Origin: Candidatus Binatia bacterium
GTDB taxonomy: Bacteria; Desulfobacterota; Binatia; UBA12015
DNA: 62,173 nt
NCBI GenBank assembly: GCA_019749875.1
Contig: JAIEPK010000143.1
Location: forward strand, 73,531-135,703
Reading direction: 5' to 3'
Position numbers and translations under genes: made by a program. The notes beneath the pieces are model-generated. The model saw only the letters and a program-made list of their open reading frames with translations. It did not search any database and was not told the DNA's origin. Of this stretch, positions 29,730 through 62,114 are shown one piece after another. How positions within the stretch are numbered: the stretch's first letter is position 1; each line of letters starts with the position of its first letter.

Positions 29730-32213
29730 TCAGAACGCCTGGCGTGTACCGAAGAGAACCTGAAAGTTGGTCTGGTCGCGATCGAGCCGAGTCGCCAGCT
29801 CGATGTAGGCACGTCCGGGGAAGAAGCCGAGGAAATCGTACAGGGCATTGATGCCCGTCCCCGCCGCGATCGCCCAGTGCTCAGGATTCAAGGCCCTGCC
29901 GGCGGAGTCGTCGACCTGGCCCGTATCGACGAACAGCTGGAGCTGCGGACGCCGGTAGATCAGCACGTCCAGCAGATTGAAGTCGACCTCGGGGAAGACG
30001 TCCTGGCGGATCTCTGCCCGCACCAGCCCGATGTTCCGGGCGAGCTTCTCGTTCACCGACACGCCGCGCAGCGCCCGCCGGCCACCGAGGCTGTACTGCG
30101 CCTGGATGGGAACCCCTTGGTCGCTCGTCGACTCCTCGAACCCGGTCAGCAGCTCGAGTGCACCGATGGTGCGCGGGGTGCCGAGAGGCGTCGTCCCGGC
30201 GACGCGCCCGCCGAACCGGACGAAGCCGTAATCACCGCCGAAATCGGCGTCGTACCAGTCGGCGAAGAGCCGAGCTTCGCGCTGGTTGGTCGGATTGTCG
30301 TAGTCGTACACGTTCGAGTAGTCGTAGCGGACGCCGAAGCCCCCGATCTGTCCGCGATCGCGCAGCTCGGGTTCCGAGTCGTCCTTGAAGCCGCTGTCCA
30401 GCCACTGGTGATCGTAGAACGCGTACAGGTTGTGGCGGAAGGTGTTGGCGTCGTTGCGCGGTCCGAAGTGGACGCGGGGTCCGGCATTCACGCCGTAGCC
30501 GCGTTCGGTCAGGTACGGGTTGATCGCCAAGTCCTTGGTGTAGTCGCCGCGCTCGCGCGCGACGAACAGCGCCGCGAGCCCGAATTCGGTCGAGCTGACT
30601 TCGACGTCGGCGGTGTCGAGCACCAGCTGATACCGCGACCGGTCTCGTGGCGGACGCAGCGCCGGATCGACGATCACCGGCACGTCGGCGGGAAGCGGTG
30701 GCGCCAGCGCGGCATCGAGCACGCCGTCGGCCGCGGCCGGCTCTTTGCCGGTCGCGGCGCCGAGCGTGTCGACAAACGGCCTACAGGGTGAGGCGAGCTG
30801 GAGGTCCACGGCGCGTGCGAGGTCTTCGGCGCCCACGCTGCGCTCGAGTCGAGCGAACGCGAGCCGCGCCGGCGGGTGGTTTCCGGAGTAGGTGAAGACG
30901 CTCTCACGCAGGTCGTCGTCGCTCTGCGCGTTGCGGAAGAATGCCTGTACGAAGGGAACCTTCGGCGCGGTCTCGAAGCGGTCGACGATGGCGAACACGT
31001 CGAACCAGTCGATCCAGTCGTGCACCGAACGATGGTCGGGATCGATCACGTCGACGTAACGGTCGGCCAGTGCCCAGGCGACACCGTCGCCCAGCCACCT
31101 GGGCTGCATCTCCGGACAAGCGCGCATCTCGTCCCGTAACAGCTCCGCGTAGACGGCCTGTGCGACCTGCGCCTCGTGGAACGGCCGCAGCAGCTCGTGG
31201 ACCCGCATCGCACGGTCGGAGACCACGACGATGCCGTCGCTCGGCGTCGTCAGATTCCAGCGGAGCGGCACCTGTACGACCGTCAACGTCGCCGGAGCCG
31301 CGAGCGATCCGGGACGCACCTCGATCGCTCGCTGGACCGCGGTGCGAAACAGCTCGGGGGCGATCGGGCCCGGCGCGAGACGTTGCTCGCGCAGTGGGCG
31401 CGGGGCGACGAGGGTGATCGTCGTGGTGCCGGTGTTCGCGGTGGTGACGTTCGCGTCGGGCAAGGCGATCAGCGCGAATGCCCGCACCGCCCGGGCCTCG
31501 ACCTGAACGTTCGCGGGATGCGGTGCTGGGAAAACGTCGCTTCCGGCGACGAGCGTCACGTCGGGAGGTGCGGTGATCGAGGCGCTCACGTCGGCCGACG
31601 CCGGTCCGGCGGTCCACAGCCAGGTGCCGTCCGCGGCCCGCGGCACGAGATACGGGTACCAGCCCGCGACCGCGGTATCGCCGAGCTCGGTGCGGCCGAA
31701 GGGACCGTAGCGCTCCGGCAGCCGCGTGGTGAAGCCGACGACGACGGTCGTCGACGCGCCGCCTTGCAGCCCGCTCGGGAGGTCGAGCTCGAGCGTGGTT
31801 TGCGCGGGAGTCTCGTCGCGCTCGACCAGGCGATGCGTGAGCGCCGTTCCGTCCGCGGCAGCGGCCGAGTCGATGGTGATGTCGCCCGCGATGAACTCGT
31901 TCTCCGGATACACGTGCATGCGCGTGATGTCGTTCACCTCGTCGCCGTCGTGCAGAAAGCGATTCGGATACAGCTGCAGGTACACGTGCTGCAGCGGTTC
32001 GCGACCGACGTTGGTGAACGTGATCGCGACGCTGCCGCCGATCACACCCGACGCTGCATCGAGAGTCGCGGTGACCGCGTAATGCGGGAGTGGAGCACGA
32101 GCGCGCGCGGGCACCGCGGACCACAGCAGGAGCACGGTGGTGAGCATGGCGTGCGTCGTCCAGCATCGCGCGCGGCGTGTCTTGCGCCGCAAAGCGGCGA
32201 CGTGCGGGTCCAT
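29730..32213 (-). CDS. Fusion of degenerate M1 aminopeptidase-like domain and C-terminal Omp85/BamA-type beta-barrel
   Basis: N-terminal YAVTATLD..G.I.G.V.ITFTN..VYLQLYPN; degenerate HEAQV; C-terminal YSLGGRRALRG, LFVDTG, terminal Phe; start 32213 or 32147. Confidence 0.7.
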   Translation of the reverse strand: MDPHVAALRRKTRRARCWTTHAMLTTVLLLWSAVPARARAPLPHYAVTATLDAASGVIGGSVAITFTNVGREPLQHVYLQLYPNRFLHDGDEVNDITRMHVYPENEFIAGDITIDSAAAADGTALTHRLVERDETPAQTTLELDLPSGLQGGASTTVVVGFTTRLPERYGPFGRTELGDTAVAGWYPYLVPRAADGTWLWTAGPASADVSASITAPPDVTLVAGSDVFPAPHPANVQVEARAVRAFALIALPDANVTTANTGTTTITLVAPRPLREQRLAPGPIAPELFRTAVQRAIEVRPGSLAAPATLTVVQVPLRWNLTTPSDGIVVVSDRAMRVHELLRPFHEAQVAQAVYAELLRDEMRACPEMQPRWLGDGVAWALADRYVDVIDPDHRSVHDWIDWFDVFAIVDRFETAPKVPFVQAFFRNAQSDDDLRESVFTYSGNHPPARLAFARLERSVGAEDLARAVDLQLASPCRPFVDTLGAATGKEPAAADGVLDAALAPPLPADVPVIVDPALRPPRDRSRYQLVLDTADVEVSSTEFGLAALFVARERGDYTKDLAINPYLTERGYGVNAGPRVHFGPRNDANTFRHNLYAFYDHQWLDSGFKDDSEPELRDRGQIGGFGVRYDYSNVYDYDNPTNQREARLFADWYDADFGGDYGFVRFGGRVAGTTPLGTPRTIGALELLTGFEESTSDQGVPIQAQYSLGGRRALRGVSVNEKLARNIGLVRAEIRQDVFPEVDFNLLDVLIYRRPQLQLFVDTGQVDDSAGRALNPEHWAIAAGTGINALYDFLGFFPGRAYIELATRLDRDQTNFQVLFGTRQAF

Positions 32214-32285: not shown

Positions 32286-33815
32286 ATGCCTGAGGTGAAC
32301 CGCGCGCCCACGCGCACGCGCACCCTGGTCCTGATGGAGCCGCCCTTCTGCTTCTGGGATCAGAGCATGGACCGACTCCGCGAGGGCGAAGAGACCATTC
32401 CCGGCATCGGCATCCTGGTCTTGGCGGCGCTCGCGCGAGAGAAGGGCTACGCGGTCCACGTCGTCGACGCGAAGCGCGCCGGCACGACCAACGAGGAGGC
32501 CGCACGCCGCATCGTCGCGCTGCAGCCGGACGTGGTGGGTCTGTCGTGCACGACGATCTCGATCACGAACGGAAGCCGCGTGGCGAAGGCGATCAAGGCA
32601 GCGCTTCCGCGCTGTACGACCATCGTCGGCGGCGCTCACGTCAGCGCGATCCCCGAGCGAACGCTGAAGGAATTCGACGCGTTCGACTACGGCATCGCGG
32701 GCGAAGGCGAGCACTCGCTGTTCGAGCTGTTGCGGCGTCTGGAGGAGGGTCGCGACGTTCGCGACGTGCCGGGCCTTGCGTACCGCGATCCCGACGCGGG
32801 CGGTGCCGTTCGCGCGAACCCGCGGGCGGCGTACGTCGAGGATCTCGACGCGCTGCCGATGCCCGCTTGGGATCTGGTCCCGAACTTCCCGCACGCGTTC
32901 GCGCCGTCGATGTTCAACTACCGGCGCAGTCCGGTGGGAACGCTCATCACCCAGCGCGGTTGTCCGTTCTCCTGCACCTTCTGCGACCGCTCGACCTCGG
33001 GCCGCCGCGGACGCTGGCATTCGGTCGAGTACGTCGTTCGCATGCTGCAGCAGATGGCGGACTACGGCGTCAAGCACATCCTTTTCTACGACGATCTGTT
33101 CACGGTCAACAAGACGCGGGTGCGGCAGCTCTGCGAGGCGATGCTCGATCACCGCCTCGACTTCACGTGGAGTTGCAACAGCCACCCGAACCTGCTCGAT
33201 GCCGACACCATGGCGCTCATGCGCCGTGCGGGCTGCTGGCAGATCGCGTACGGCATCGAGTCGGGCTCGCAGCGCGTGCTCGACCACGTCAAGCACGAAG
33301 TCAAGCTCGATCGCCTGCTCGGCACGCTGCGCATGACGCGCGCGGCGGGACTGAAGATCAAGGGTCTCATGATGTGCGCGCACCCGACGGAAACCGTCGA
33401 GAGCCTCGAGGAGACCAACCAGTTCCTGCGCAAGGCGCCGCTCGACCTCATGCAGCTCACCAAGTTCACGCCGTACCCGGGAACGCCGTCGTATCCGACG
33501 ATCCACGAGTACGGCACGTTCGTCGAGAACTGGGAGAGCATGAACGCGATGAACTTCGTGTTCGTTCCCAACGGCCTCGACGCTGCCACGCTCGAGCGGT
33601 ACTTCCACCGGATGTACCGAACCTTCTACTCGCGTCCGGACGTGCTGCTCGGGCTTGCGAAGGTGGTGCTCGAGGAGCCGCGCTTTCTCGCACGGCTGGG
33701 CGGCTACGCGAAACCGTGGGTCGGTGAGGCGATGCGTCGGATGTGGCGAACCGCGGGCGCGACACGCGTGCCGCGAGCCGGCGTCGGACCGTCGGTCACG
33801 GGACGCGCCGCCTGA
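32286..33815 (+). CDS. Cobalamin-binding radical SAM protein (class B methyltransferase-like)
   Basis: N-terminal B12-binding domain (VVGLS..T, GGAHVS), CPFSCTFC, DDLF, GIESGS. Confidence 0.92.
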   Translation: MPEVNRAPTRTRTLVLMEPPFCFWDQSMDRLREGEETIPGIGILVLAALAREKGYAVHVVDAKRAGTTNEEAARRIVALQPDVVGLSCTTISITNGSRVAKAIKAALPRCTTIVGGAHVSAIPERTLKEFDAFDYGIAGEGEHSLFELLRRLEEGRDVRDVPGLAYRDPDAGGAVRANPRAAYVEDLDALPMPAWDLVPNFPHAFAPSMFNYRRSPVGTLITQRGCPFSCTFCDRSTSGRRGRWHSVEYVVRMLQQMADYGVKHILFYDDLFTVNKTRVRQLCEAMLDHRLDFTWSCNSHPNLLDADTMALMRRAGCWQIAYGIESGSQRVLDHVKHEVKLDRLLGTLRMTRAAGLKIKGLMMCAHPTETVESLEETNQFLRKAPLDLMQLTKFTPYPGTPSYPTIHEYGTFVENWESMNAMNFVFVPNGLDAATLERYFHRMYRTFYSRPDVLLGLAKVVLEEPRFLARLGGYAKPWVGEAMRRMWRTAGATRVPRAGVGPSVTGRAA

Positions 33816-33910
33816 GCGAGCGCGCCCAGCCCGAGCCGGTCGCCGTCGTTCGACAGGCGCTGCGCGGCACCGCCGTGCACCGGGCGTTTCCAACCGATCG
33901 AGCCCCAGTC

Positions 33911-34879
33911 ATGGCCCCCTCCTCCGACACCGTCCTCGACCACGAGAGGCTGACCGAAGCAGCGCCCGATGGACTGGCGGACGCGCTCGCGCAAGGACGC
34001 TTCCGGCACGATGGCCTCTTCTGGCGTCGGCTTGCGTATCGAGGATCGGCCGAGGGGCCGGAATGGTGGAAGCGCACGTCGCCGGCGGCGATCGCGACCG
34101 TCCTGTTCGCCGCGATCCCGACCAACCGGCGCGGCGTGATCGCCAATCTCCGGCGCATCGAGGGATCGCGGGGGCCGGTCGCGGATCGTTGGAGCGCGCT
34201 CAGGACGTTCGTCCAGTTCGCGTACTGCCTCACCGAGACGCTGGAACACGCGAGCCCCTACGCGCGGCCGCTGACCGTCGACGAGCCTCCCGAGATCTCC
34301 GCGTTCGAGGCGCTGCCGCGCGACCAAGGCGTCGTCGTGCTGACCTCGCACTTCGGCAGCTGGGAAATCGCGGCCAGCCTGATGCAGCGTCTCGGCCGGC
34401 GGGTGAACGTGGTGATGGCGCGTGAGGCGAATCCATCGGTGGAGGCATTCCAGAGCTCGCTCCGCGAGCGCTGTGGCCTGCGCGTACTGCACTCGGACTC
34501 GTCTCCCTTTGCGTCGCTCAACATGCTGCAGGCGCTGCGTCGTGGCGAGATCGTGGCGATCCAGATCGATCGTTCCGCGCCCGGGCACGTCACGCGGCCG
34601 ATCGAGTTCTTCGGCGCGCCAGCCCCTTTCCAGTACGGACCCTTCGCACTCGCGCGCCTCGCCGGCGTGCCGCTCTGGCCGGTCTTCGCGGTGCGCCTCG
34701 GCACGCGACGGTATCGGATTCTTCCCGAGCCGCTGCGAACGATTCCGCGTGATGCGAGTGAGCAGGACGTGCTCGCCGTGATGCGCGACGTGGCGTGCAG
34801 CTTCGAGCGGCACGTCCGCGCCTACCCGAACCAGTGGTTCCAGTTCGCGCCCTTCTGGGACCAGCGCGCCGGCCGCTGA
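33911..34879 (+). CDS. LpxL/HtrB-family lysophospholipid acyltransferase
   Basis: SHFGSWE, QIDR, FFGAPAPF, YPNQWFQF. Confidence 0.87.
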   Translation: MAPSSDTVLDHERLTEAAPDGLADALAQGRFRHDGLFWRRLAYRGSAEGPEWWKRTSPAAIATVLFAAIPTNRRGVIANLRRIEGSRGPVADRWSALRTFVQFAYCLTETLEHASPYARPLTVDEPPEISAFEALPRDQGVVVLTSHFGSWEIAASLMQRLGRRVNVVMAREANPSVEAFQSSLRERCGLRVLHSDSSPFASLNMLQALRRGEIVAIQIDRSAPGHVTRPIEFFGAPAPFQYGPFALARLAGVPLWPVFAVRLGTRRYRILPEPLRTIPRDASEQDVLAVMRDVACSFERHVRAYPNQWFQFAPFWDQRAGR

Positions 34880-34906
34880 CGACGACCGATCGACACAGGA
34901 GGACCA

Positions 34907-35695
34907 GTGCAGCAGCTACGAATTCCTGCGACCGACCTGAGCGAGGAATGGGTGACGCCGATCGGTGCCGCCGATGCCTCGGATCTGCGCGTGATGCTGA
35001 ACCGCATGATCTACCGCGGCATGCTGTTCTCGATGGGAACCATTGCCGTTGGCCTGCACCAGGTCAGTCCGGACGCGGCATGGAGCTTCGCCAAGCTGTC
35101 GGCGCGGAATCTCGCCCTTGCGACCGGCGTCGAGGTGAAGATCGTCGGCGCGGATAACCTGCCCGACGAGCCCAGCATCATCACTCCGAATCACGCAAGC
35201 CACTTCGACATCGCGGCGCTGCTCGGATACCTGCCGGGCCACAATCGCTTCGCAGCGAAGAAGGAGCTGTTCCGCGAGCCGGTGCTGGGCGTGGTCATGA
35301 AGACGCTCGGCATGATCCCGATCGATCGCGAGGACCCCGCGCAGTCCATCGCTCTGCTGAACAAGATCGCAGCTCGGCCCGCCGGCGCGTTCTCGCTGAT
35401 CATGTTCCCCGAGGGCACACGCTCACGTGACGGGCGCATGGGTGTCTTCAAGAACGGCGCATTCACCCTCGCCCTGCAGCTCGGCCGGCCGATCGTGCCG
35501 ATCGCCATTCACGGCACGTCGAGCATCATGCCGGCGGGCAAGTACCTGTCGATCCTGCCGGGAACGGTCGTGCTCGAGGTGCTCGAGCCGGTCGAGACCA
35601 AGGGCCGCGACGTGGAGGAGCGTCTGGCACTGCGGGATCTCGTCGCGGGCCGGATCGCGGAGCGTCTGGCCGCGGCGCGCGACGCCGACGGCTGA
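34907..35695 (+). CDS. 1-acyl-sn-glycerol-3-phosphate acyltransferase (PlsC family)
   Basis: NHASHFD (HX4D), AKKELF, FPEGTRS, PIVPIAI. Confidence 0.92.
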   Translation: MQQLRIPATDLSEEWVTPIGAADASDLRVMLNRMIYRGMLFSMGTIAVGLHQVSPDAAWSFAKLSARNLALATGVEVKIVGADNLPDEPSIITPNHASHFDIAALLGYLPGHNRFAAKKELFREPVLGVVMKTLGMIPIDREDPAQSIALLNKIAARPAGAFSLIMFPEGTRSRDGRMGVFKNGAFTLALQLGRPIVPIAIHGTSSIMPAGKYLSILPGTVVLEVLEPVETKGRDVEERLALRDLVAGRIAERLAAARDADG

Positions 35696-35720
35696 GGCTT
35701 CGGTGTCGAACGGCGAGACG

Positions 35721-36488
35721 ATGCTCGATCTGCCCGCACCCAGTCGAAACGGGACGCCGCTTCCCGCGCCACCGAGCGCCGGCGACACGGGCGTCGCGGT
35801 GGGCCAACGCACCGCCGCGTTGATCCCCGCTTTCGACTGCGCGCGGACCATCGCAGACGTCGTCCGCGGTGCGGCACGGCACTGCGAGCACGTGCTCGTC
35901 GTCGACGACGGGTCGACCGACGACACGGCCGCGCACGCGCGTCAGGCCGGAGCCGAGGTGATCCGCCACGAGCTGAATCGCGGCAAGGGCGCGGCGCTGC
36001 GCAGCGGACTCATCCGACTGCTCGCGCAAGGATACACGCACGCCTTCTCGATCGACGGTGATGGCCAGCACCTCGCGAGCGAGATGCAGCGCATGCTCGA
36101 CGCGTCGCGGGCCGCACCGAACGCGATCGTGCTCGGGGCGCGGCGCATCACCGAGGATCAGCAGGTCGCACCGATCAAGCGCTTCGGCAACGACTTCGCC
36201 AACTGGTGGGTCTCGCTCGCAGCCGGTCGCGAGTTCCGCGACACCCAGACGGGCTTTCGCATCTATCCGATCGCCGCGACGCTCGAGCTCGGCGTACAGG
36301 CCGAGCGCTACCAGTTCGAGAGCGAGGTCCTGATCCTGGCTGCGCGCCGCGGCATCGACATCCAGACCTGCGAGGTGGCGGTCTTCTACCCGCCGCCCGG
36401 AGAGCGGATCAGCCACTACGATCCGTGGGTCGATACCTACCGGATCATCGTGACCGTCGTGTCTTTCTTGGTCCGCCTTCGTACTTGA
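35721..36488 (+). CDS. Glycosyltransferase family 2 (DPM-synthase-like)
   Basis: IPAFD, VVDDGSTD, NRGKGAAL, DGDGQH, DTQTGFR. Confidence 0.92.
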   Translation: MLDLPAPSRNGTPLPAPPSAGDTGVAVGQRTAALIPAFDCARTIADVVRGAARHCEHVLVVDDGSTDDTAAHARQAGAEVIRHELNRGKGAALRSGLIRLLAQGYTHAFSIDGDGQHLASEMQRMLDASRAAPNAIVLGARRITEDQQVAPIKRFGNDFANWWVSLAAGREFRDTQTGFRIYPIAATLELGVQAERYQFESEVLILAARRGIDIQTCEVAVFYPPPGERISHYDPWVDTYRIIVTVVSFLVRLRT

Positions 36489-36523: not shown

Positions 36524-37294
36524 TCAGTACGGCCAGTTGGTGGTGATGAGGCCGCCGTCGACCTCCATCACCTTGCCCGTCACGTAGCTGCTCGCGGGGG
36601 ACGCGAGGTAGAGCGCGGCGATCGCGATGTCCTCGACGGCGCCCAGGCGCCTCATCGGCGTCATCGCTTCCATCTTCGCGCGCAGATCCGCGTCGAGGAA
36701 CGGCGTCAGCGCCGACGTCTCCACGGAGCCCACGGCGATCGCGTTCACGCGGACGCGCGGCGCGAGCTCGATCGCGAGCTCCTTGGTCATGAACGACAGC
36801 GCCGCCTTCGCCGTCCCGTAGGCGACGAAGCCCGACATGGGTAGACGCCCCGCGGCCGAAGAGATGTTGACGATGCTGCCGCCGTCGCGCTCGAGCATGT
36901 GCGGGATCGCGAGGCGGCTCAGCAGAAACGCCGACGTCACGTTGAAGCGCAGCGCCTCCTCGAAGTACTTCTCGCTGGTCTGCAGAGCCGGCTTCGGTGG
37001 CCAGCCGCCGGCGTTGTTCACCACGACGTCGATGCGCCCGAACTCGCGCATCGTCTCCGCGACGAGGTGCTCGAGCTGGTCGCGCTGGTTGACGTCGCAG
37101 GGGATGGCGAGCGCGCGCGGGCCCATGGCGCGGACGCGCTCGGCGGTCGCGTCGATCTCGTTCCGCGAGCGCGCGCTGCAGACGACGTGAGCCCCGCATT
37201 CGGCGAAGGCGAGAGCACAGCCCTGGCCGATCCCGCGCCCGGCACCGGTGACGATGGCGACCTTGTCGTCGAGACGGAAGCGATCGAGCAACAT
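36524..37294 (-). CDS. SDR family oxidoreductase (7-alpha-HSDH-like)
   Basis: TGAGRGIG, NNAG, NISS, YGTAK, RVNAIAVG. Confidence 0.92.
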   Translation of the reverse strand: MLLDRFRLDDKVAIVTGAGRGIGQGCALAFAECGAHVVCSARSRNEIDATAERVRAMGPRALAIPCDVNQRDQLEHLVAETMREFGRIDVVVNNAGGWPPKPALQTSEKYFEEALRFNVTSAFLLSRLAIPHMLERDGGSIVNISSAAGRLPMSGFVAYGTAKAALSFMTKELAIELAPRVRVNAIAVGSVETSALTPFLDADLRAKMEAMTPMRRLGAVEDIAIAALYLASPASSYVTGKVMEVDGGLITTNWPY

Positions 37295-37373
37295 GCTCGG
37301 CACGTATCTCCGAGCGTCCGCCCAGCGCAAGGAGTGATCGACCCTTGCGGGCTCGCGGTCGTCCCGCTAAATA

Positions 37374-37403
37374 CTGAGCATGCTCAATTCTGAGCCTGCT
37401 CAG
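37374..37403. promoter_or_regulatory. Tandem palindromic operator, probably bound by the adjacent TetR
   Basis: TGAGCATGCTCA (37375-37386, perfect palindrome) and TGAGCCTGCTCA (37391-37402) at the start of tetR, in the tetR/SDR divergent region. Confidence 0.7.
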
Positions 37404-56297: not shown

Positions 56298-57572
56298 CTA
56301 CGACGGGCGCGCGGCTCGGTCGAGCCGCGCCGAGGGTTCCACGCGATCGAAGACCACCGGCACCAACACCCCGCCGCGCGCCGCTCCTACGAGGAGGAGT
56401 CGCGTCACCCGCTTCATCGTCGGCCGTTCCGCACGGTGCTCGGCGATCTCTGCGTCCGGCAGCTCGCCCGCCCGGAGGGCGCGGCTCGCGAGCACGGCGC
56501 CGAGCGCCCCCGCAGCACCCCAATCGCCGACCAGCCGGCGGAACGGCGCGTACGCCGGTCGGCGATCGTCGCGACAGAGCCGTTGCAGGATCGCGTCGTC
56601 GAGTGCGTCGCGCAGCACGAGCCCGTTCGCAGACCCGAGAACGCCGTCGAGCTCGGGGCCCGGAAAGTGCGCCAGCTCGAGCAGCTCCGATGCTGCCGCG
56701 TCCACGTCGCGCGGGAGGCCGTACGGCGAGCAATCCCCGCCCACCGCCCCGATGCGCGCGCCGGCGACCGTTGCGTAGGGCTTCGCCCCGCGTGCCGTCG
56801 CGCGCGATGCACGCTCGAGCACGAGCGCCGCCGCGCCCTCGCCGGGCACCACCGTCCCGTGCCGACTCGTTCGACGGCCCCGGCGCTGCTCGCCCTCCGG
56901 AGCCATGGCGTCCGGATGCAGAAGACGGAGGTCCGACAGCGCATCGAGCAGGACACTGCCCATCTCGTCGACCGCGGCGACGCACGCGACGTCGCAGGTG
57001 CCGCTCGCGAGCAGGTCGAGGGCGGTCGCGATGGCGACCTCGCCCGATGCCTCGTGCTCCGCGACGCAAACGTTGGGTCCGCGCACGTCGAGCTCGATCG
57101 CGGCGTAGCCCGCGGCAGCGTTCAGGACGAGATTCGGGAATAGAAGCGGCTGACCCGCAGCCGGGCCCGACGCGAAGACGCGCTTCAGGTACACCGCGGT
57201 CTCGCGCTGGTTGCCGTAGCAGGACCCTACGACCAGCGCGGTGCGCACGCTGGTCGCGTCGTCGAGCGGTACCAGGCCGGCGTCCTCGCTGGCCTGGCGG
57301 AGTGCCGCGACCGCCATGCGCGAGCACCAGTCCATGCGTCGCAGCTGCGCCGAGCGCACGTGCTCGCGCGGCTGGAAGCCGCGCACCCAGCCCGCGCGGC
57401 GCACGGCATCCGGAGCGGTCGGATCGACGCCCGTTGCGAGACGGTCGTCACCGGGCGCGAGCTCGCGAATTCCGCTTCGCCCGGCCACGAAAGCGTCCCA
57501 GACGGATTCGATCCCGGTACCGAGCGGACATACCGCGCCCAGGCCGGTGACGACGATCGGCTCGTTGCTCAT
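56298..57572 (-). CDS. Ketosynthase chain-length-factor (CLF)-like protein
   Basis: KS fold; active-site Cys replaced by Glu (AEHEASG); both His motifs lost (SANG, GDWGAAG); ATGA overlap with KS. Confidence 0.85.
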   Translation of the reverse strand: MSNEPIVVTGLGAVCPLGTGIESVWDAFVAGRSGIRELAPGDDRLATGVDPTAPDAVRRAGWVRGFQPREHVRSAQLRRMDWCSRMAVAALRQASEDAGLVPLDDATSVRTALVVGSCYGNQRETAVYLKRVFASGPAAGQPLLFPNLVLNAAAGYAAIELDVRGPNVCVAEHEASGEVAIATALDLLASGTCDVACVAAVDEMGSVLLDALSDLRLLHPDAMAPEGEQRRGRRTSRHGTVVPGEGAAALVLERASRATARGAKPYATVAGARIGAVGGDCSPYGLPRDVDAAASELLELAHFPGPELDGVLGSANGLVLRDALDDAILQRLCRDDRRPAYAPFRRLVGDWGAAGALGAVLASRALRAGELPDAEIAEHRAERPTMKRVTRLLLVGAARGGVLVPVVFDRVEPSARLDRAARPS

Positions 57573-58810
57573 GCGCGCCGCAGCACCAGCGAGCAGTTGT
57601 TGCCGCCGAACCCGTACGAGTTCGACAGCGCCGTCGCGATGGCGAGCGGGCGGCCACGATTCGGCACGTAGTCGAGGTCGCAGGCAGGATCGGGCTCGCG
57701 CAGGTGCAGCGTCGGTGGCGCCCAGCGGTCGTCGATGGCGATGATCGTCGCGATCGCCTCGACGGCCCCCGCGGCTCCGAGCAGATGCCCGATCAGCGCC
57801 TTGGTCGACGACACCGCCACGCGCGGCGCCGCTTCACCCAGCACGCGCTTCAAGGCCAAAGTTTCGCTGGCGTCGTTCTGCACGGTGCCGGTGCCGTGCG
57901 CATTGACGTAGTCGATCTCGCCGGGACGGACGCCGGCGTCGCGCAGCGCGCTCTCGAGCGCGAGCACCGCGCCGCGTGCCTCACCGTGCGGAGCGGTGGG
58001 ATGCGATGCGTCGCACGACATCCCTGCGCCCGCGAGCTCGGCGAGGGCGACGGCCCCGCGGGCGCGAGCGTGCTGCTCCGACTCGAGAACGAGGATGCCG
58101 GCGCCCTCGCCGAGCGACAGTCCGCGGCGCTCGCGGTCGAACGGGCGGCACGGCTCGCTGCTCAACGCCTGCAGCGCGTGGAATCCCGTGTAGGTCATCC
58201 GCGTCAACGCGTCCGAGCCGCCCGCGACGGCGACGTCGACCGCGCCGGATCGGATCCACGCCGCCGCCAGCGCGAGCGCGATCGCGCCGCTCGAGCAGGC
58301 GGTCGACGGCGACAACCGCGGACCCCGGGCACCGAGCACCGCTGCGACGAGATCCGTCGGAGCGGCCACGGTCGCGGCCGCGAGCCGCCTACGCCACACG
58401 TGCGACGTCTGCGCAGCGAGGCGCGTGCGAAAGTACGACTCTGTCTCGAGCATGCCGCCGGTCGAGCTGCCGATCGCCACACCCAGTCGACGGGGGTCGG
58501 CGAACGGCACGCTGAGCCCGGCGTGGGCGAGCGCCTCCTCCGCTGCGAGGAGCGCGAACCGATCCGAGCGCGACGCCCGAACGCGCGCAGCGCGCGGCAG
58601 CAGTCGCGGCTCCGGGACGTCACTCACCTCGCCCGCGATGTGCACCCGCAGCCCGTCGGTGTCGAACAGCGTGACGTCGCGGATGCAGGTTCGCTCGCCG
58701 TGCAGGGCCGCCCGCAAGGCCGCTGCATCGCCACCTGCTGCAGTGATCGCTCCGACGCCGGTCACCACGACGCGCGTCCGGGGCTCTTGGGGCCGCTCGC
58801 GATGCTCCAT
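57569..58810 (-). CDS. Beta-ketoacyl-ACP synthase (KS-alpha/FabF-like)
   Basis: TACSSG, YVNAHGTGT, KALIGHLLGAAG (C-H-H triad), SNSYGFGG. Confidence 0.95.
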   Translation of the reverse strand: MEHRERPQEPRTRVVVTGVGAITAAGGDAAALRAALHGERTCIRDVTLFDTDGLRVHIAGEVSDVPEPRLLPRAARVRASRSDRFALLAAEEALAHAGLSVPFADPRRLGVAIGSSTGGMLETESYFRTRLAAQTSHVWRRRLAAATVAAPTDLVAAVLGARGPRLSPSTACSSGAIALALAAAWIRSGAVDVAVAGGSDALTRMTYTGFHALQALSSEPCRPFDRERRGLSLGEGAGILVLESEQHARARGAVALAELAGAGMSCDASHPTAPHGEARGAVLALESALRDAGVRPGEIDYVNAHGTGTVQNDASETLALKRVLGEAAPRVAVSSTKALIGHLLGAAGAVEAIATIIAIDDRWAPPTLHLREPDPACDLDYVPNRGRPLAIATALSNSYGFGGNNCSLVLRRA

Positions 58811-58813
58811 GGC

Positions 58814-59554
<741 letters not shown>

Positions 59555-59590
59555 TCCGCTCCCGCGTTGAATAGTGGAACATGGAGTCCC

Positions 59591-61036
59591 GTGCCGCAAC
59601 CACCCGCCCGCCGCCGATCCTCTCCCGCAAGCGCCCTCGCGGCCGCCTTTGGCGAGGTGCGTCGCGCGGCCCCCGACGCGCTTGCCGTACTTGACACCGA
59701 CCGGGCGCTGCGGCTCACCCGGGACGACGTCGCGCGTGCGGCCGATGCGGCCGGGTGCCTGCTCGACGGGTTTCCGGCGGGTGCGATCCTCGCGCTCCAG
59801 ATGCCGAACGGTCCGGACTTCTTCGCGGCCGTGCTCGCTTGCTGGCAGCGCGAGCTGGTGCCGCTACTGGTCGATCAGGACGTCGCCACGGCGGCGCTGG
59901 ACGAGATCTGCCGCGGCACGGGCGCCGCGGCCGTTCTCCACGCCGACGCCGCGGACCGGCTGCTGGTGCGTGCGGCGGCGCGCGCGGACAGCGGCACCGT
60001 GGCGATGCCGGCCGGGGTGGCGCTGCTCAAGGTCACGTCGGGCAGCACCGGGGAGCCTCGAGCGGTGGTTCTGGAGGCGGACGCCCTGCTCGCGGGTGTC
60101 GGGCAGATCGTCTCCACGATGGGACTCGAGCCCACCGACCGGAACCTGGTGACCATTCCGCTCGCGCACTCGTACGCTTTCGACAACGTCGTCCTGACGC
60201 TGGTGCGCGACGGCATGGCGGCCGTGCTGGCACGCGATCTGACGCCGCGGCGATTGCTCGCGATCGCGCACGACGCGGGAGCCTCCGTCCTGCCGACGGT
60301 CCCCTTCCTGATCGACGTTCTCGCTCGTGCGCGGCCGTCTGGAGCGCTTCCCGCTCTGCGACGCGTGATCTCGGCCGGGGCGCCGCTGCCGGCGAGCGCG
60401 CGCGAGCGCTTCGCGGTGGCGTTCGGGGTGCGTCCGCGGACGTTCTATGGCGCGACCGAATGCGGCGGCATCGCCTTCGATCGGGCCGGTGACGGCGATC
60501 TGCCGGACGGCTGCGTCGGCGCACCGCTCGACGGCGTCCGCGTGCTGGTCGACGAGCCCGACGAGGACGGCATCGGCCGAATCCGCGTGTCGAGCGCCTC
60601 GGTGGCACGGGGCTATCTCCCCGAAACGACCGGTGCCTCCGGGGACGATCCCATCCGGCGCGGTGCGTTTCGCACGGCGGACCTCGGCCGTGTCGACAGC
60701 CGTGGCAGGCTCCACCTGGTCGGGCGCATCCACGACGTCGTGAACGTGGGCGGTCGAAAGGTCTATCCGGCCGAGGTGGAGCGCGTGATCCGTGCCGTGC
60801 CGGGCGTCAACGACGTGGTGGTGACGGGGGTCGCCCGCTCGGCCGTCGCCGACGCCCTCCGCGCGGTGGTCGCGGCCGAGCCGCACGTGACGCGGGACGA
60901 CGTCGCCGCAGCCTGTGAGCAGCGTCTCGCACGCTACAAGGTCCCGCGCTCGATCGAGCTGGTCCCCGAGCTGCCCCGCACCGGACGGGGCAAGATCGAC
61001 CGCCGCGCATTGGACGCCCGCTACCCGAACGACTAA
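59591..61036 (+). CDS. AMP-dependent acyl-ACP/CoA ligase
   Basis: TSGSTGEPR, YGATECG, TADLG, PRTGRGKID; GGAG before GTG. Confidence 0.9.
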   Translation: MPQPPARRRSSPASALAAAFGEVRRAAPDALAVLDTDRALRLTRDDVARAADAAGCLLDGFPAGAILALQMPNGPDFFAAVLACWQRELVPLLVDQDVATAALDEICRGTGAAAVLHADAADRLLVRAAARADSGTVAMPAGVALLKVTSGSTGEPRAVVLEADALLAGVGQIVSTMGLEPTDRNLVTIPLAHSYAFDNVVLTLVRDGMAAVLARDLTPRRLLAIAHDAGASVLPTVPFLIDVLARARPSGALPALRRVISAGAPLPASARERFAVAFGVRPRTFYGATECGGIAFDRAGDGDLPDGCVGAPLDGVRVLVDEPDEDGIGRIRVSSASVARGYLPETTGASGDDPIRRGAFRTADLGRVDSRGRLHLVGRIHDVVNVGGRKVYPAEVERVIRAVPGVNDVVVTGVARSAVADALRAVVAAEPHVTRDDVAAACEQRLARYKVPRSIELVPELPRTGRGKIDRRALDARYPND

Positions 61037-61073
61037 AGCATCCCGTCCCGGTTCGCGTGCCGGCCCAGCAGTC

Positions 61074-61346
61074 ATGACCAGAACGGAGATCGCCACCCGC
61101 GCCAAGGACCTCCTGATCAGCGGCCTGCGCCTCGAGATCTCGCCCGAGGACATCGTCGATGCCGACCCGATCTTCGGCGCCGGGCTCGGTCTCGACTCGA
61201 TCGACGCGCTCGAGTTCGTGGTGTTGATCGAGGAGAACTTCGGGGTCTCGATCCCCGACGAGAACGTGGCCAAGCAAGCGCTGGCGTCCATCGACGCGCT
61301 CGCCGACTTCGTCGAGTCCGAGCGCCGCCGTCAGAATCCGTCCTGA
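61074..61346 (+). CDS. Acyl carrier protein
   Basis: GLGLDSIDALE phosphopantetheine site; acidic, 90 aa. Confidence 0.93.
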   Translation: MTRTEIATRAKDLLISGLRLEISPEDIVDADPIFGAGLGLDSIDALEFVVLIEENFGVSIPDENVAKQALASIDALADFVESERRRQNPS

Positions 61347-61397
61347 GCGGCGCCGCCTCGTCTTGCGGTGCGGGCCGCCCCGGCGAAGGATGAGCTG

Positions 61398-62114
61398 ATG
61401 TCCTGCGCGAGGATGGTGCGCTCGGCGGCCCGGCCGAGCCGTCGGGCCCGGACGACCACGCTGCGGCTCTGCGGCGCCGTTGCGCTCGGTCTGGCGCTCG
61501 GCTGGACGGCCGTCGGCCGGGAGTCTGCAGCGCGCGCCGCCACGGATGCCGCCACGCCGGCCGCTGCCGGCTGTGGCAGCCCGCAGCAGTGCTTCTCGCG
61601 GATGGCCGACGCGCAGCGCGACGTGTCCCGGATTCGCGCGCAGTTCCGGCAGACGAAGCAGGTTGCGCTGCTTGCCGAGCCGCTGGTCTCGACTGGCCGC
61701 TTCTCCTTCGAGCGCCCCGACCGGGTGCGCTGGGAGATGCTGACGCCGGAGCCGCTGGTGGTGGAGATCGCCGGCGGAGCGCTGCGCGCCGGGCCGCCGG
61801 GTGCGGTCACCGACGTCGATGCCGGGCCGGCGGTGGGCTTGTTCCGCGACCTCGGTGGCTTGTTCTCCGGTGCTGCGGACTACGCAGGCGAGCAGCGCTT
61901 CGCGCTGTCGTCGGGCGGCTCGCCGTGGAGCTTCGTCTTGACACCACGCGACCCGTCGGTCGCACGCGTCATCGGCGCGATCGACGTCACCCTCGACCCC
62001 GCGACCGGTGGACCGCGCCGCGTCGCGATCAGCGAGCGCAGCGGCGACCGCACCGAGATCGAGCTGTTCGACGTGCAGGTCGAGCGCGCCGCCGCGCACG
62101 GCGGGGGCGCGTGA
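61398..62114 (+). CDS. LolA-like outer membrane lipoprotein carrier-family protein
   Basis: A.FRQTK...L..PL.STG.F.F.RP..VRW; signal-like hydrophobic segment; start uncertain (61368/61398). Confidence 0.8.
   Translation: MSCARMVRSAARPSRRARTTTLRLCGAVALGLALGWTAVGRESAARAATDAATPAAAGCGSPQQCFSRMADAQRDVSRIRAQFRQTKQVALLAEPLVSTGRFSFERPDRVRWEMLTPEPLVVEIAGGALRAGPPGAVTDVDAGPAVGLFRDLGGLFSGAADYAGEQRFALSSGGSPWSFVLTPRDPSVARVIGAIDVTLDPATGGPRRVAISERSGDRTEIELFDVQVERAAAHGGGA

What the first reader, a model, noticed from the sequence alone, without database searches (positions are those of the whole stretch)
32286..36488. B12-radical SAM + LpxL-type + PlsC-type + GT2 operon: unknown glycolipid tailoring unit
Seen: four co-oriented genes. 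Known: aryl-polyene and flexirubin-type clusters use an LpxL-like acyltransferase, a PlsC-like acyltransferase and a GT2 to attach the polyketide chain to a lipid anchor; anammox candidate ladderane clusters pair B12 radical SAM enzymes with KS/ACP genes. Inference: this may be the detached anchoring/tailoring half of the KS-CLF cluster at 56-62 kb, adding radical methylation or cyclisation to produce a new membrane lipid or pigment.
Basis: partly seen in the sequence, partly recalled or inferred. Interest (0 to 1): 0.62.

Follow-up and report, generated by a model that had tools for sequence, protein, structure and literature searches.

The report
Split aryl-polyene-type lipid anchor operon
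These four genes of an uncultured Binatia bacterium most likely attach a special fatty chain to a sugar-phosphate-glycerol anchor, as the known aryl-polyene pigment-lipid genes of E. coli do. They carry one extra vitamin-B12 radical enzyme whose reaction is still unknown.

Summary
Window 32286-36488 (+) holds four tightly packed genes: a B12-binding radical SAM (rSAM) enzyme, an LpxL-type acyltransferase, a PlsC-type acyltransferase and a GT2.

The GT2 and the LpxL-type protein are reciprocal best hits of the two halves of E. coli ApeJ. ApeJ is the fused glycosyl/acyl-transferase that builds aryl-polyene lipids (APELs). The PlsC-type protein is only an analogue of ApeD.

The KS/CLF/KR | ligase-ACP-LolA(-MMPL) cluster at 56-62 kb supplies the other APE-type parts. 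In other Binatia species the two blocks lie 7-9 kb apart or are contiguous. They also co-occur across 121 genomes.

The rSAM enzyme is not HpnJ (a true HpnJ lies on another contig), not BchE, and not the TIGR04072 "ladderane" rSAM. It belongs to a well-conserved, almost Binatia-only family with no curated model. It is an optional accessory: sister genera keep LpxL-PlsC-GT2 without it. Its chemistry, methylation or radical rearrangement, is unresolved.

The pathway lacks the ApeI-type dehydratase, so the chain need not be a polyene.

Verdict: a new variant of the known but product-less APE / "ladderane-like" cluster class. Interest is moderate.

The parts
32286..33815 (+). Class B (B12-binding) radical SAM enzyme, 509 aa. 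First gene of the operon. Member of a near Binatia-only family.
   Evidence: It carries PF02310 plus PF04055 and an invariant CX3CX2C motif at C226/C230/C233. No NCBIfam model reaches its cut-off: HpnJ 186/577.6, BchE 152/481, TIGR04072 121/360. The AF2 model (pLDDT 79) has the class-B fold: AprD4, MgmA, OxsB, TsrM and TokK all match at about 1e-19. In the tree it forms its own clade, apart from HpnJ, TIGR04072 and rSAM2.
33911..34879 (+). LpxL-type (Lip_A_acyltrans) acyltransferase, 322 aa. Homologue of the C-terminal half of ApeJ. Alternative starts at 33875 and 33743.
   Evidence: PF03279, 3e-21. HX4E motif SHFGSWE. The product on record is 322 aa. Its only hit in the E. coli CFT073 chromosome is ApeJ residues about 360-550 (1.1e-12), and ApeJ's best acyltransferase hit in this genome is this gene. 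All lipid A LpxL models score far below cut-off.
34907..35695 (+). PlsC-type lysophospholipid / glycerol-3-phosphate acyltransferase, 262 aa. Functional analogue of ApeD.
   Evidence: PF01553, 1.4e-27. HX4D (NHASHFD) and FPEGTR motifs, and an AGGAGG ribosome-binding site. Orthologues occur in 54/121 Binatia genomes, including 41/43 of those with the rSAM. In CFT073 its best hit is the housekeeping PlsC (8.5e-14); ApeD comes third (2.6e-6).
35703..36488 (+). GT2 glycosyltransferase of the polyprenyl-phosphate / lipid-phosphate sugar-transferase type, 261 aa. Homologue of the N-terminal half of ApeJ. Alternative start at 35721.
   Evidence: PF00535. Its best NCBIfam matches are PpgS and AglJ, both below cut-off, and there is no HpnI match. 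Its best hit in CFT073 is the ApeJ N-half (9.5e-23; the next hit is 5e-3). ApeJ's best GT2 hit in this genome is this gene.
29730..32213 (-). Omp85-barrel protein with an M1-peptidase-like domain, divergent from the operon across a 72-nt gap. Conserved neighbour and possible outer-membrane partner.
Evidence: An orthologue lies directly upstream and divergent in L002, L007, L008, L010 and L104. The same holds in genus g6, which lacks the rSAM (L101, and a fragment in L103).
36524..37330 (-). SDR (FabG-like) oxidoreductase, convergent with the GT2. Conserved neighbour; membership uncertain.
   Evidence: adh_short_C2, 1.1e-65. Orthologues of 60-91% identity lie next to the transferase genes in L007, L101, L102, L103 and L110.
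56298..57572 (-). Chain-length-factor-like KS partner (CLF) of the linked type II FAS/PKS block.
   Evidence: ketoacyl-synt N domain only. Orthologues occur in 37/121 Binatia genomes, and 36 of those also have the PlsC orthologue.
57569..58810 (-). Ketosynthase (ApeO/ApeR-like).
   Evidence: PF00109 plus PF02801. It is the best hit of ApeO in this genome (39%, 3.6e-59).
58814..59599 (-). Ketoreductase (ApeQ-like SDR).
   Evidence: adh_short_C2, 1.5e-59. 54% identical to the KR of the L004 cluster.
59657..61036 (+). Acyl-AMP ligase (ApeH-like). Start not fixed. The ORF at 59864-61291 on the minus strand is a shadow frame.
   Evidence: The motifs TSGSTGEPR, YGATE and GRGKIDR are present. GC3 is 0.87, against 0.80 for the minus frame. 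The match to ApeH is weak.
61101..61346 (+). Acyl carrier protein (ApeE-like).
   Evidence: PP-binding, 4.8e-10. 38% identical to ApeE.
61368..62114 (+). LolA-like lipid carrier (ApeL-like). The cluster is then cut by the contig end.
   Evidence: PF03548, 1.5e-10. It is the best hit of ApeL in the genome. In the 91% relative it is followed by a further ORF without any family match (not shown to be a lipoprotein) and then an MMPL exporter.

Best explanation
The operon is the lipid-anchor assembly module of an aryl-polyene-lipid (APEL)-type, 'ladderane-like' type II FAS/PKS pathway of an uncultured Binatia bacterium. It sits 20 kb from its chain-making genes.

Shown by homology:
- The GT2 corresponds to the N-half of ApeJ.
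- The LpxL-type enzyme corresponds to the C-half of ApeJ. ApeJ is here split into two genes.
- The PlsC-type enzyme plays the ApeD role.

Inferred from the Xenorhabdus APEL model:
1. PlsC acylates a lysophosphatidic-acid-type glycerolipid.
2. The GT2 puts a hexosamine-type sugar from a UDP-sugar onto the lipid phosphate.
3. The LpxL-type enzyme O-acylates that sugar with the ACP-bound chain. The ligase, ACP, KS/CLF and KR at 56-62 kb make that chain.
4. LolA-like and MMPL proteins carry the lipid to the outer membrane. The divergent Omp85 protein may help.

The B12-radical SAM enzyme is an optional, lineage-specific tailoring enzyme of this lipid. Its phyletic pattern follows the PlsC orthologue more closely than the ketosynthase partner CLF (41/43 against 27/43 rSAM-bearing genomes), which suggests that it acts on the anchor glycolipid rather than during chain elongation. 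LpxL and GT2 were not profiled across genomes. My best guess is a cobalamin-dependent C-methylation (about 0.4). A radical rearrangement or dehydration of the sugar head group, as in HpnJ, AprD4 or OxsB, is the main alternative (about 0.25).

No ApeI/ApeP dehydratase, tyrosine ammonia lyase or ApeB methyltransferase was found in this genome. The chain may therefore not be an aryl polyene.
For: - ApeJ homology is reciprocal for both halves.
- The experimental roles of ApeD and ApeJ and the glycerol-phosphate-GalNAc structure of APELs come from doi 10.1101/2020.12.19.423268.
- The GT2's nearest curated families are lipid-phosphate sugar transferases (PpgS, AglJ), which fits a sugar-on-phosphate linkage.
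- The KS/CLF block has the APE-type parts KS, CLF, KR, ligase, ACP, LolA and MMPL, but no transferases.
- Compact versions exist in relatives. L102 and L110 have LpxL-PlsC-GT2 ... CLF-KS-KR | ACP-LolA(-MMPL) within about 13 kb. In L104 the blocks are 8 kb apart. In L004, L017, L018, L032, L048 and L076 the rSAM gene is contiguous with TIGR04072-KR-KS-CLF.
- Co-occurrence over 121 genomes: rSAM-PlsC 41/2/13/65; PlsC-CLF 36/18/1/66; rSAM-CLF 27/16/10/68.
- Position of the rSAM: directly followed by GT2 in 13 and by LpxL in 12 of 69 loci, and never directly next to a KS.
- The rSAM is dispensable. Genera g2 and g6 of the same family carry LpxL-PlsC-GT2 without it.
- Short, perfectly matching metatranscriptome contigs lie in the rSAM, LpxL and GT2 genes. 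This is weak evidence.
Against: - The PlsC-type protein is not an ApeD orthologue by best-hit criteria.
- No ApeI-like domain (PF22818) exists anywhere in this 96.8%-complete genome, and there is no ApeP, ApeK or ApeB homologue. A defining core of APE clusters is therefore missing.
- In Binatia family f4 (G004, G111) the rSAM and the PlsC orthologue exist with no CLF-like hit at all. In f11 the only CLF-like hits are 30-34% identical and look like FabF. The anchor genes therefore do not strictly need this KS/CLF.
- In genus g3 the operon is only rSAM-PlsC.
- The two blocks are 19.8 kb apart here, with unrelated transporters and glycosidases between them.
- Nothing distinguishes methylation from rearrangement. 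NCBIfam ties HpnJ with ApyD, and Foldseek ties AprD4, MgmA, OxsB, TsrM and TokK.
- No product is known for any cluster of this class.
Confidence: 0.7

Rival explanations
1. The operon makes a general envelope phosphoglycolipid from ordinary fatty acids, independently of the KS/CLF cluster. One example would be an acylated phosphatidyl-hexosamine. The rSAM would modify one of its acyl chains by mid-chain methylation or chain coupling. On this view the linkage to KS/CLF is only regional synteny.
For: - Binatia family f4 has the rSAM and the PlsC orthologue with no CLF-like hit at all. In f11 the only CLF-like hits are 30-34% identical and look like FabF.
- 14 genomes with the rSAM and PlsC lacked a CLF at E<=1e-35.
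- The PlsC-type protein is closest to housekeeping PlsC.
- The genome has no APE-type dehydratase.
- The blocks are 19.8 kb apart here.
- Genus g3 has rSAM-PlsC alone.
- The tightest co-occurrence is rSAM with PlsC (41/43).
Against: - The GT2 and LpxL-type proteins are specific reciprocal best hits of ApeJ, not of any housekeeping enzyme.
- 36 of 37 CLF-bearing genomes have the PlsC orthologue.
- At least ten species have the blocks contiguous or within 9 kb.
- The KS/CLF block has its own exporter but no transferases.
Confidence: 0.17
2. The rSAM and GT2 are paralogues of the hopanoid side-chain enzymes HpnJ and HpnI. On this view they modify bacteriohopanepolyols, with the rSAM contracting a glucosamine ring to a cyclitol ether.
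For: - HpnJ is the top NCBIfam match of the rSAM (186 bits).
- The organism has a hopanoid pathway, since a true HpnJ is present.
- In other Binatia the rSAM follows a CE4 deacetylase and a flippase-like/HpnL-like membrane protein. That echoes hpnI-J-K-L.
Against: - The score is a third of the HpnJ cut-off, and ApyD ties with it.
- A bona fide HpnJ (717 bits) lies on contig C459 and is only 28% identical.
- The tree gives no supported grouping with HpnJ.
- The GT2 has no HpnI match and is a best hit of ApeJ.
- No hpn gene turned up among the window genes scanned with Pfam, though the window was not searched for shc or hpn genes specifically.
Confidence: 0.04
3. The rSAM is a chain-cyclising or chain-coupling enzyme. 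It would either form rings in a polyunsaturated chain (ladderane-type) or join two acyl chains tail to tail (Mss-like), so that the operon yields a new hydrocarbon skeleton.
For: - The cluster class was first noted as 'ladderane-like' (PMC2649909; review PMC13459092).
- Relatives carry a TIGR04072 rSAM beside KS/KR.
- The rSAM-PlsC pairing would suit an enzyme that acts on glycerolipid tails.
- The synthase for membrane-spanning lipids is still unknown in some soil bacteria (PMC13159169).
Against: - This rSAM is not TIGR04072 (121 against 360 bits), and this genome has no TIGR04072 orthologue.
- No desaturase or dehydratase that could make a polyene is found here.
- I could not make a sequence comparison with Mss.
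- No lipid data exist for Binatia.
Confidence: 0.05

Closest known systems
Aryl polyene / aryl-polyene-lipid (APE/APEL) cluster apeA-R of E. coli CFT073 and Xenorhabdus doucetiae. The relevant parts are ApeJ (GT2 fused to an acyltransferase) and ApeD (PlsC-type acyltransferase).
   Same: The GT2 and the LpxL-type acyltransferase are reciprocal best hits of the two ApeJ halves. A PlsC-family acyltransferase is present. The linked block has KS, CLF, KR, acyl-AMP ligase, ACP, LolA-like and MMPL homologues.
   Different: - ApeJ is split into two genes, with the PlsC gene between them.
- The module lies 20 kb from the KS/CLF block.
- A class-B radical SAM gene heads the operon.
- There is no ApeI/ApeP dehydratase, ApeK thioesterase or ApeB methyltransferase, and only one ACP was seen.
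- PlsC is not an ApeD orthologue.
- No aromatic starter pathway was found in this genome.
'Ladderane-like' FASII / radical SAM clusters (Kuenenia stuttgartiensis kuste3335-3352, Desulfotalea psychrophila; the antiSMASH 'ladderane' type; marker TIGR04072).
   Same: These clusters also combine type II KS genes, B12-radical SAM enzymes, a glycosyltransferase, a polysaccharide deacetylase and a CoA/AMP ligase, and their product is unknown. Other Binatia have a TIGR04072 rSAM (395.6 bits, above the 360 cut-off) beside KR-KS-CLF and next to this rSAM family.
   Different: The rSAM in this window is a different family (121 bits against TIGR04072). This genome has no TIGR04072 orthologue. No phytoene-desaturase-like gene was seen. 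The organism is not an anammox bacterium.
Hopanoid side-chain genes hpnI (GT2), hpnJ (B12 rSAM), hpnK (deacetylase) and hpnL (flippase-like membrane protein).
   Same: The same set of enzyme classes is grouped around a lipid-linked amino sugar. HpnJ is the best-scoring curated model for the rSAM.
   Different: The rSAM scores below the HpnJ cut-off, and a true HpnJ lies elsewhere in the genome. The GT2 is of the ApeJ type, not the HpnI type. The deacetylase in relatives is CE4, not YdjC-type. No deacetylase or flippase-like gene is in this operon.
Flexirubin and xanthomonadin pigment clusters.
   Same: These are type II PKS pathways with an ammonia lyase, a halogenase, LolA/MMPL export and acyltransferases. 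Other Binatia place a CmlS-like halogenase and an ammonia lyase next to this rSAM.
   Different: The lyase of the relatives has the Ser-His switch of histidine ammonia lyases, not the His-Leu switch of tyrosine ammonia lyases (the switch rule is from my own knowledge). No lyase homologue and only a distant halogenase homologue (C586, 36-39% identity, probably a paralogue) are present in this genome. No dialkylresorcinol genes were seen.

Membership tests
APEL anchor module (ApeJ/ApeD type) | GT2 domain homologous to the N-terminal half of ApeJ | tested here: met
   29-31% identity. The E-value is 9.5e-23 in the whole CFT073 chromosome, with the next hit at 5e-3. ApeJ's best GT2 hit in this genome is this gene.
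APEL anchor module (ApeJ/ApeD type) | LpxL-fold acyltransferase domain homologous to the C-terminal half of ApeJ | tested here: met
   The only CFT073 hit at E<=0.01 is ApeJ residues about 360-550 (1.1e-12). The relation is reciprocal in this genome.
APEL anchor module (ApeJ/ApeD type) | GT2 and acyltransferase fused in one polypeptide, as in E. coli and Xenorhabdus ApeJ | tested here: not met
   They are two separate genes (33911-34879 and 35703-36488) with the PlsC gene between them. All 120 nearest LpxL-type homologues are stand-alone proteins of about 320 aa.
APEL anchor module (ApeJ/ApeD type) | ApeD-type glycerolipid acyltransferase | tested here: inconclusive
   It belongs to the PlsC family and has HX4D and EGTR motifs. 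Its best CFT073 hit is housekeeping PlsC, and ApeD comes third. ApeD's best hit in this genome is on C313.
APE biosynthetic gene cluster (core genes as listed by Grammbitter et al.: KS, CLF, ACP, DH, KR, transporter) | KS, CLF, KR, ACP and an MMPL transporter in one cluster with the transferases | tested here: inconclusive
   All are present on the same contig, but 19.8 kb away, and the MMPL gene lies beyond the contig end (it is seen in the 91% relative). The genes are contiguous or within 9 kb in other species.
APE biosynthetic gene cluster (core genes as listed by Grammbitter et al.: KS, CLF, ACP, DH, KR, transporter) | ApeI/ApeP dehydratase pair | tested here: not met
   There is no PF22818 (ApeI-like) match in the whole genome, which is 96.75% complete. 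BLAST finds no hit to ApeI or ApeP at 1e-4.
APE biosynthetic gene cluster (core genes as listed by Grammbitter et al.: KS, CLF, ACP, DH, KR, transporter) | The product is an aryl polyene chromophore | not testable with these tools
   The organism is uncultured and no lipid data exist. No TAL/HAL-type lyase, ThiH-like enzyme or ApeB homologue is in this genome; the only halogenase-like hit is a distant one (C586, 36-39% identity).
HpnJ (TIGR03471) | Score at or above the curated cut-off of 577.6 bits, and orthology to hopanoid HpnJ | tested here: not met
   The score is 186 bits. A true HpnJ of 717 bits lies at C459:5009-6418 and is 28% identical. The tree gives no supported grouping with it.
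TIGR04072 lipid-biosynthesis ('ladderane') B12 radical SAM | Score at or above 360 bits | tested here: not met
   The score is 120.8 bits. The rSAM beside KS/KR in L004 scores 395.6, so the model does detect true members in Binatia.
BchE (TIGR02026) | Score at or above 481 bits | tested here: not met
   The score is 151.7 bits. None of 61 Binatia genomes has any hit above the cut-off.
Class B (cobalamin-binding domain) radical SAM enzymes | N-terminal B12-binding Rossmann domain plus a radical SAM TIM barrel with CX3CX2C | tested here: met
   PF02310 and PF04055 are both present. C226, C230 and C233 are invariant. The fold matches AprD4, MgmA, OxsB, TsrM, TokK and CysS. Actual cobalamin binding cannot be tested here; AprD4, the top hit, is described as not using it (my own knowledge).
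Lipid A late acyltransferases LpxL/LpxM/LpxP | Curated NCBIfam cut-offs, and similarity to E. coli LpxL, LpxM or LpxP | tested here: not met
   The best model scores 61.9 against 273 bits. No hit to LpxL, LpxM or LpxP appears in CFT073 at E<=0.01. A second Lip_A_acyltrans paralogue lies on C483.

The most novel reading that the evidence does not exclude
The radical SAM enzyme is not a methylase. It would be an HpnJ/AprD4/OxsB-like radical rearrangement enzyme that remodels the amino-sugar head group of an ApeJ-type phosphoglycolipid, for example by ring contraction to a cyclitol or by deoxygenation. Binatia would then have an outer-membrane lipid with a head group so far known only from hopanoids and archaeal calditol lipids. 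The enzyme would be the first such one outside those two systems.
Probability: 0.15. Interest if true: 0.7.

Novelty: new variant of a known kind. Interest (0 to 1): 0.45.

Why it matters
Aryl-polyene-type and "ladderane-like" clusters are among the commonest lipid or pigment gene clusters in Gram-negative bacteria. No product is known for any version that carries radical SAM enzymes.

This Binatia version is useful because nature has taken the pathway apart:
- The ApeJ function is split into two genes.
- The anchor module is separate from the chain-making module.
- The radical SAM gene is present in some genera and absent in their sisters.

That gives a natural with/without comparison and a small four-gene unit that could be expressed with and without the radical enzyme to find out what it does.

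It also gives a name and a context to a large, well-conserved protein family. Pipelines currently label that family as a bacteriochlorophyll cyclase. That label has probably fed the published idea that Binatota carry chlorophyll-pathway genes.

Tried and rejected
- **HpnJ, HpnR, BchE and TIGR04072 identity of the rSAM.** All score far below their cut-offs. A true HpnJ lies elsewhere. The tree shows a separate clade.
- **Context of the nearest outgroup.** The 38%-identical homologues in Ca. Thiodiazotropha sit beside an ATP sulfurylase, a methyltransferase and a multihaem cytochrome. This says nothing about lipids.
- **Structure prediction and Foldseek.** The model is a confident class-B fold, but methylases and non-methylases tie, so the chemistry is not resolved. 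The sequence search of the PDB gave the same result.
- **Rfam over the whole window.** No riboswitch or other RNA family was found.
- **Promoter and terminator scan.** Nothing useful came out in this GC-rich DNA.
- **Context of the second rSAM family.** It sits on C27, a 2.75-kb contig. In the closest relative it lies beside a PhyH dioxygenase and unknown genes, which is not informative.
- **First literature search.** The spelling 'aryl polyene' combined with four other terms returned nothing. Later searches worked.
- **Comparison with the Thermotoga membrane-spanning-lipid synthase Mss.** This could not be done.
- **One wasted scan.** I first scanned the wrong frame for the ligase in L090. 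The frame was corrected by BLAST to ApeH and by motifs.
- **Cross-phylum spread.** The claim was dropped. The single 'Terriglobales' contig nests inside the Binatia sequences, so it may be mis-binned.

Full report
**1. What is in the sequence**

The window is GC-rich (about 68%) and full of shadow ORFs, so I relied on domain hits and codon-position GC.

Four co-oriented genes occupy 32286-36488:
- a B12-binding plus radical SAM protein, 509 aa;
- a Lip_A_acyltrans (LpxL-type) protein;
- a PlsC-type acyltransferase;
- a GT2.

Two inner starts need correcting:
- The LpxL-type gene most likely begins at ATG 33911. The product on record for this contig is 322 aa.
- The GT2 begins at GTG 35703 or ATG 35721.
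- PlsC begins at GTG 34907, behind AGGAGG.

The gaps are 95, 27 and 7 nt. The simple scans found no promoter-like site on the + strand and no terminator-like site inside. All catalytic motifs are intact. The window is C680:73531-135703 of a 7.8-Mb, 680-contig assembly that is 96.75% complete. The window end is also the contig end.

**2. Whose genes these are**

The rSAM protein belongs to a large, well-conserved family. Members are 58-91% identical, and about 150 columns are invariant across 24 sequences.

In species-representative genomes nearly all members come from Binatia MAGs, under various old names. A 38%-identical outgroup occurs in Ca. Thiodiazotropha. One 'Terriglobales' contig nests inside the Binatia sequences, so I do not trust it as a cross-phylum case.

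**3. The three transferases are a split ApeJ plus an ApeD analogue**

I fetched the characterised APE cluster of E. coli CFT073 and compared proteins.
- ApeJ (558 aa) matches the window GT2 with its N-half (29%, 4e-21).
- ApeJ matches the window LpxL-type protein with residues 362-549 (28%, 3e-12).
- Both relations are reciprocal. In this genome ApeJ's best hits are these two genes.
- In the whole CFT073 chromosome, the LpxL-type protein hits only the ApeJ C-half (1.1e-12). It does not hit LpxL, LpxM or LpxP. The GT2 hits the ApeJ N-half at 9.5e-23, with the next GT2 at 5e-3.
- The PlsC-type protein is only a family-level analogue of ApeD. Its best CFT073 hit is housekeeping PlsC.

Grammbitter et al. 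(bioRxiv 10.1101/2020.12.19.423268) determined APELs to be glycerol-phosphate-GalNAc lipids. From deletion mutants they proposed that ApeD acylates sn-2, and that ApeJ first adds GalNAc to the phosphate and then acylates the sugar with the ACP-bound polyene.

The window GT2's nearest curated families are lipid-phosphate sugar transferases (PpgS, AglJ). That fits such a sugar-on-phosphate linkage.

**4. Link to the KS/CLF block**

Window 56-62 kb carries CLF, KS and KR on the minus strand. Diverging from them on the plus strand are an acyl-AMP ligase, an ACP and a LolA-like protein. The ligase frame carries the motifs TSGSTGEPR, YGATE and GRGKIDR. The minus-strand ORF at 59864-61291 is a shadow frame.

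In the 91%-identical relative (contig of 310 kb) the block continues with an ORF without any family match and then an 845-aa MMPL exporter, and then ends. The block therefore has the APE-type chain-making and export parts but no transferase. The operon has the transferases and nothing else.

Synteny in relatives:
- In L102 and L110, LpxL-PlsC-GT2 and CLF-KS-KR | ACP-LolA(-MMPL) lie within about 13 kb.
- In L002, L009 and L104 the blocks are 6-8 kb apart.
- In L004, L017, L018, L032, L048 and L076 the rSAM gene is contiguous with a KR-KS-CLF block.

Co-occurrence among 121 Binatia genomes at least 80% complete:
- The rSAM family is in 43, the PlsC orthologue in 54 and the CLF orthologue in 37.
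- 41 of 43 rSAM genomes have the PlsC orthologue.
- 36 of 37 CLF genomes have the PlsC orthologue.
- 27 of 43 rSAM genomes have the CLF (odds ratio 11.5).

These counts ignore shared ancestry, so the Fisher P-values overstate the case. Where the genes share a contig they usually lie 6-95 kb apart. Two further genomes have a 42%-identical CLF 23-26 kb from the rSAM gene that the threshold missed.

**5. What the rSAM is not, and what can be said**

- No curated model is reached: HpnJ 186/577.6, ApyD 186/750, BchE 152/481, TIGR04072 121/360.
- The genome holds a true HpnJ on contig C459 (717 bits). It is only 28% identical to this protein.
- In a tree the family plus its Thiodiazotropha relatives form a clade (94/97). 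That clade is separate from HpnJ, TIGR04072 and the second cluster-associated family 'rSAM2', and the deep nodes are unresolved.
- Sequence and fold searches of the PDB give AprD4, MgmA, OxsB, TsrM, TokK and CysS at similar scores. These include methylases and sugar-rearranging enzymes alike, so the chemistry stays open.

Context is more informative:
- In 69 distinct loci the gene directly downstream is GT2 in 13, LpxL in 12 and PlsC in 1. A KS is never directly adjacent.
- The strongest co-occurrence is with the PlsC orthologue.
- Within the window's own family, genera g2 and g6 have LpxL-PlsC-GT2 without the rSAM. In g6 a TIGR04072-type rSAM lies 3 kb downstream instead. Genus g3 has only rSAM-PlsC.

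The rSAM is thus an optional accessory of the anchor module. I place its substrate on the anchor glycolipid. I give methylation about 0.4 (most characterised class-B enzymes are methylases, which is my own knowledge). I give head-group rearrangement about 0.25.

**6. The wider Binatia supercluster**

Other species gather further genes around this rSAM:
- a TIGR04072 'ladderane' rSAM (395.6 bits, above the 360 cut-off);
- a ThiH/NosL-like rSAM;
- a CmlS-like halogenase;
- an ammonia lyase with the Ser-His (histidine-type) switch;
- a CE4 deacetylase, a flippase-like membrane protein and an ICMT-like methyltransferase;
- a fatty-acid desaturase, BamE-like proteins and rSAM2.

This is the cluster class first noted in 2009 in Kuenenia and Desulfotalea (PMC2649909). 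antiSMASH reports it as 'ladderane' in many non-anammox phyla, and its product is unknown (review PMC13459092).

The present genome has a reduced set. It has no lyase, no ThiH-like gene and no TIGR04072, and only a distant halogenase homologue (C586, 36-39% identity, probably a paralogue). Only rSAM2 is present, on a 2.75-kb contig.

**7. Departures from a canonical APE cluster**

- No ApeI-like domain exists anywhere in the genome.
- No ApeP, ApeK or ApeB homologue was found.
- Only one ACP was seen.

With KS, CLF and KR but no dedicated dehydratase, the chain may be hydroxylated or may borrow FabZ. I cannot say that it is a polyene, let alone an aryl polyene.

Family f4 has the rSAM and the PlsC orthologue but no CLF-like hit at all. 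In f11 the only CLF-like hits are 30-34% identical and look like FabF. This keeps alive the rival that the anchor lipid can be made from ordinary fatty acids.

**8. Expression**

One bioreactor metatranscriptome holds short contigs of 151-220 nt, with no mismatches, in the rSAM, LpxL-type, GT2 and Omp85 genes. This is weak support for transcription. DNA carry-over cannot be excluded.

**9. Verdict**

The unit is a new variant of a known, still product-less class. ApeJ is split. The anchor module is detached from the chain module. The operon is headed by a Binatia-specific class-B radical SAM family with no curated model.

Earlier notes of this scan describe many related clusters in anaerobes. 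That agrees with the classification, but I did not use it as evidence.

Noticed in passing
window 32286-33815, and 61 Binatia genomes: [quoted passage not shown] The Binatota genome paper reports bchE as ubiquitous in the phylum (PMC8262859). Yet 0 of 61 Binatia genomes has any hit above the BchE cut-off (best 212 against 481 bits), while 55 of 61 have sub-threshold class-B rSAMs. The reported bchE is probably a mis-assigned paralogue. One caveat: no phototroph was among the control genomes, so I did not verify that the model detects true BchE.
   Followed up: partly
window 29730-32213 (-): The Omp85 / M1-peptidase-like gene lies divergent from the operon across a 72-nt gap. The same holds in L002, L007, L008, L010 and L104. 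In genus g6, where the rSAM is missing, it lies directly before LpxL in L101 (a fragment is also seen in L103). It travels with the transferases and may be the outer-membrane end of the lipid's export route.
   Followed up: partly
window 59657-61036 (+) against 59864-61291 (-): Two long ORFs overlap on opposite strands. The plus frame has adenylate-forming motifs (TSGSTGEPR, YGATE, GRGKIDR), a GC3 of 0.87 and a weak ApeH match. The 475-aa minus ORF has no family match and looks like a shadow frame.
   Followed up: yes
L004 12544-14064 and about 20 other loci: In many Binatia an ammonia lyase lies directly upstream of the rSAM gene (10 of 69 loci). It passes the HAL subfamily cut-off and has the Ser-His selectivity pair of histidine ammonia lyases, not the His-Leu pair of tyrosine ammonia lyases. 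If it feeds the pathway, the starter unit might be urocanate rather than coumarate.
   Followed up: partly
L006 = L012 (DASPMH010000474.1, labelled Terriglobales): This 11.6-kb contig carries the same gene set: rSAM, small ORF, LpxL, halogenase, rSAM2, PlsC, GT2. Its rSAM nests inside the Binatia clade (99/95 with P0015). It is probably mis-binned, or else a recent transfer.
   Followed up: partly
G000 contig C459:5009-6418: A bona fide HpnJ (717 bits, cut-off 577.6) is present. The organism probably makes bacteriohopanetetrol cyclitol ether hopanoids.
   Followed up: no
G000 contig C27:1255-2637; L107, L108, L111, L112: A second class-B rSAM family ('rSAM2', 64-66% identical to the copies in L004 and L006) is the usual divergent neighbour of the PlsC orthologue in other Binatia, even where the first rSAM is absent. 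Here it sits alone on a 2.75-kb contig. In the closest relative it lies next to a PhyH-type dioxygenase. PhyH genes also flank the first rSAM in L001.
   Followed up: partly
L008 4742-7080 (genus g3): In this genus the operon is only rSAM-PlsC, behind the Omp85 gene. No LpxL-type or GT2 gene lies in the next 9 kb. I could not check whether they are absent from the whole genome. If they are, the rSAM cannot act on the sugar.
   Followed up: partly
window 36524-37330 (-) and 37380-38021 (+): An SDR that scores just under the PRK07814 cut-off (344.7 against 346 bits) is convergent with the GT2. It is kept beside the transferases in L007, L101-L103 and L110. A TetR regulator diverges from it. Either could belong to the system.
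   Followed up: no
G000 contig C619:694-3306: The best MMPL/ApeM-like ORF of the genome starts near the beginning of contig C619. That contig may continue the KS/CLF cluster cut off at the window end.
   Followed up: no
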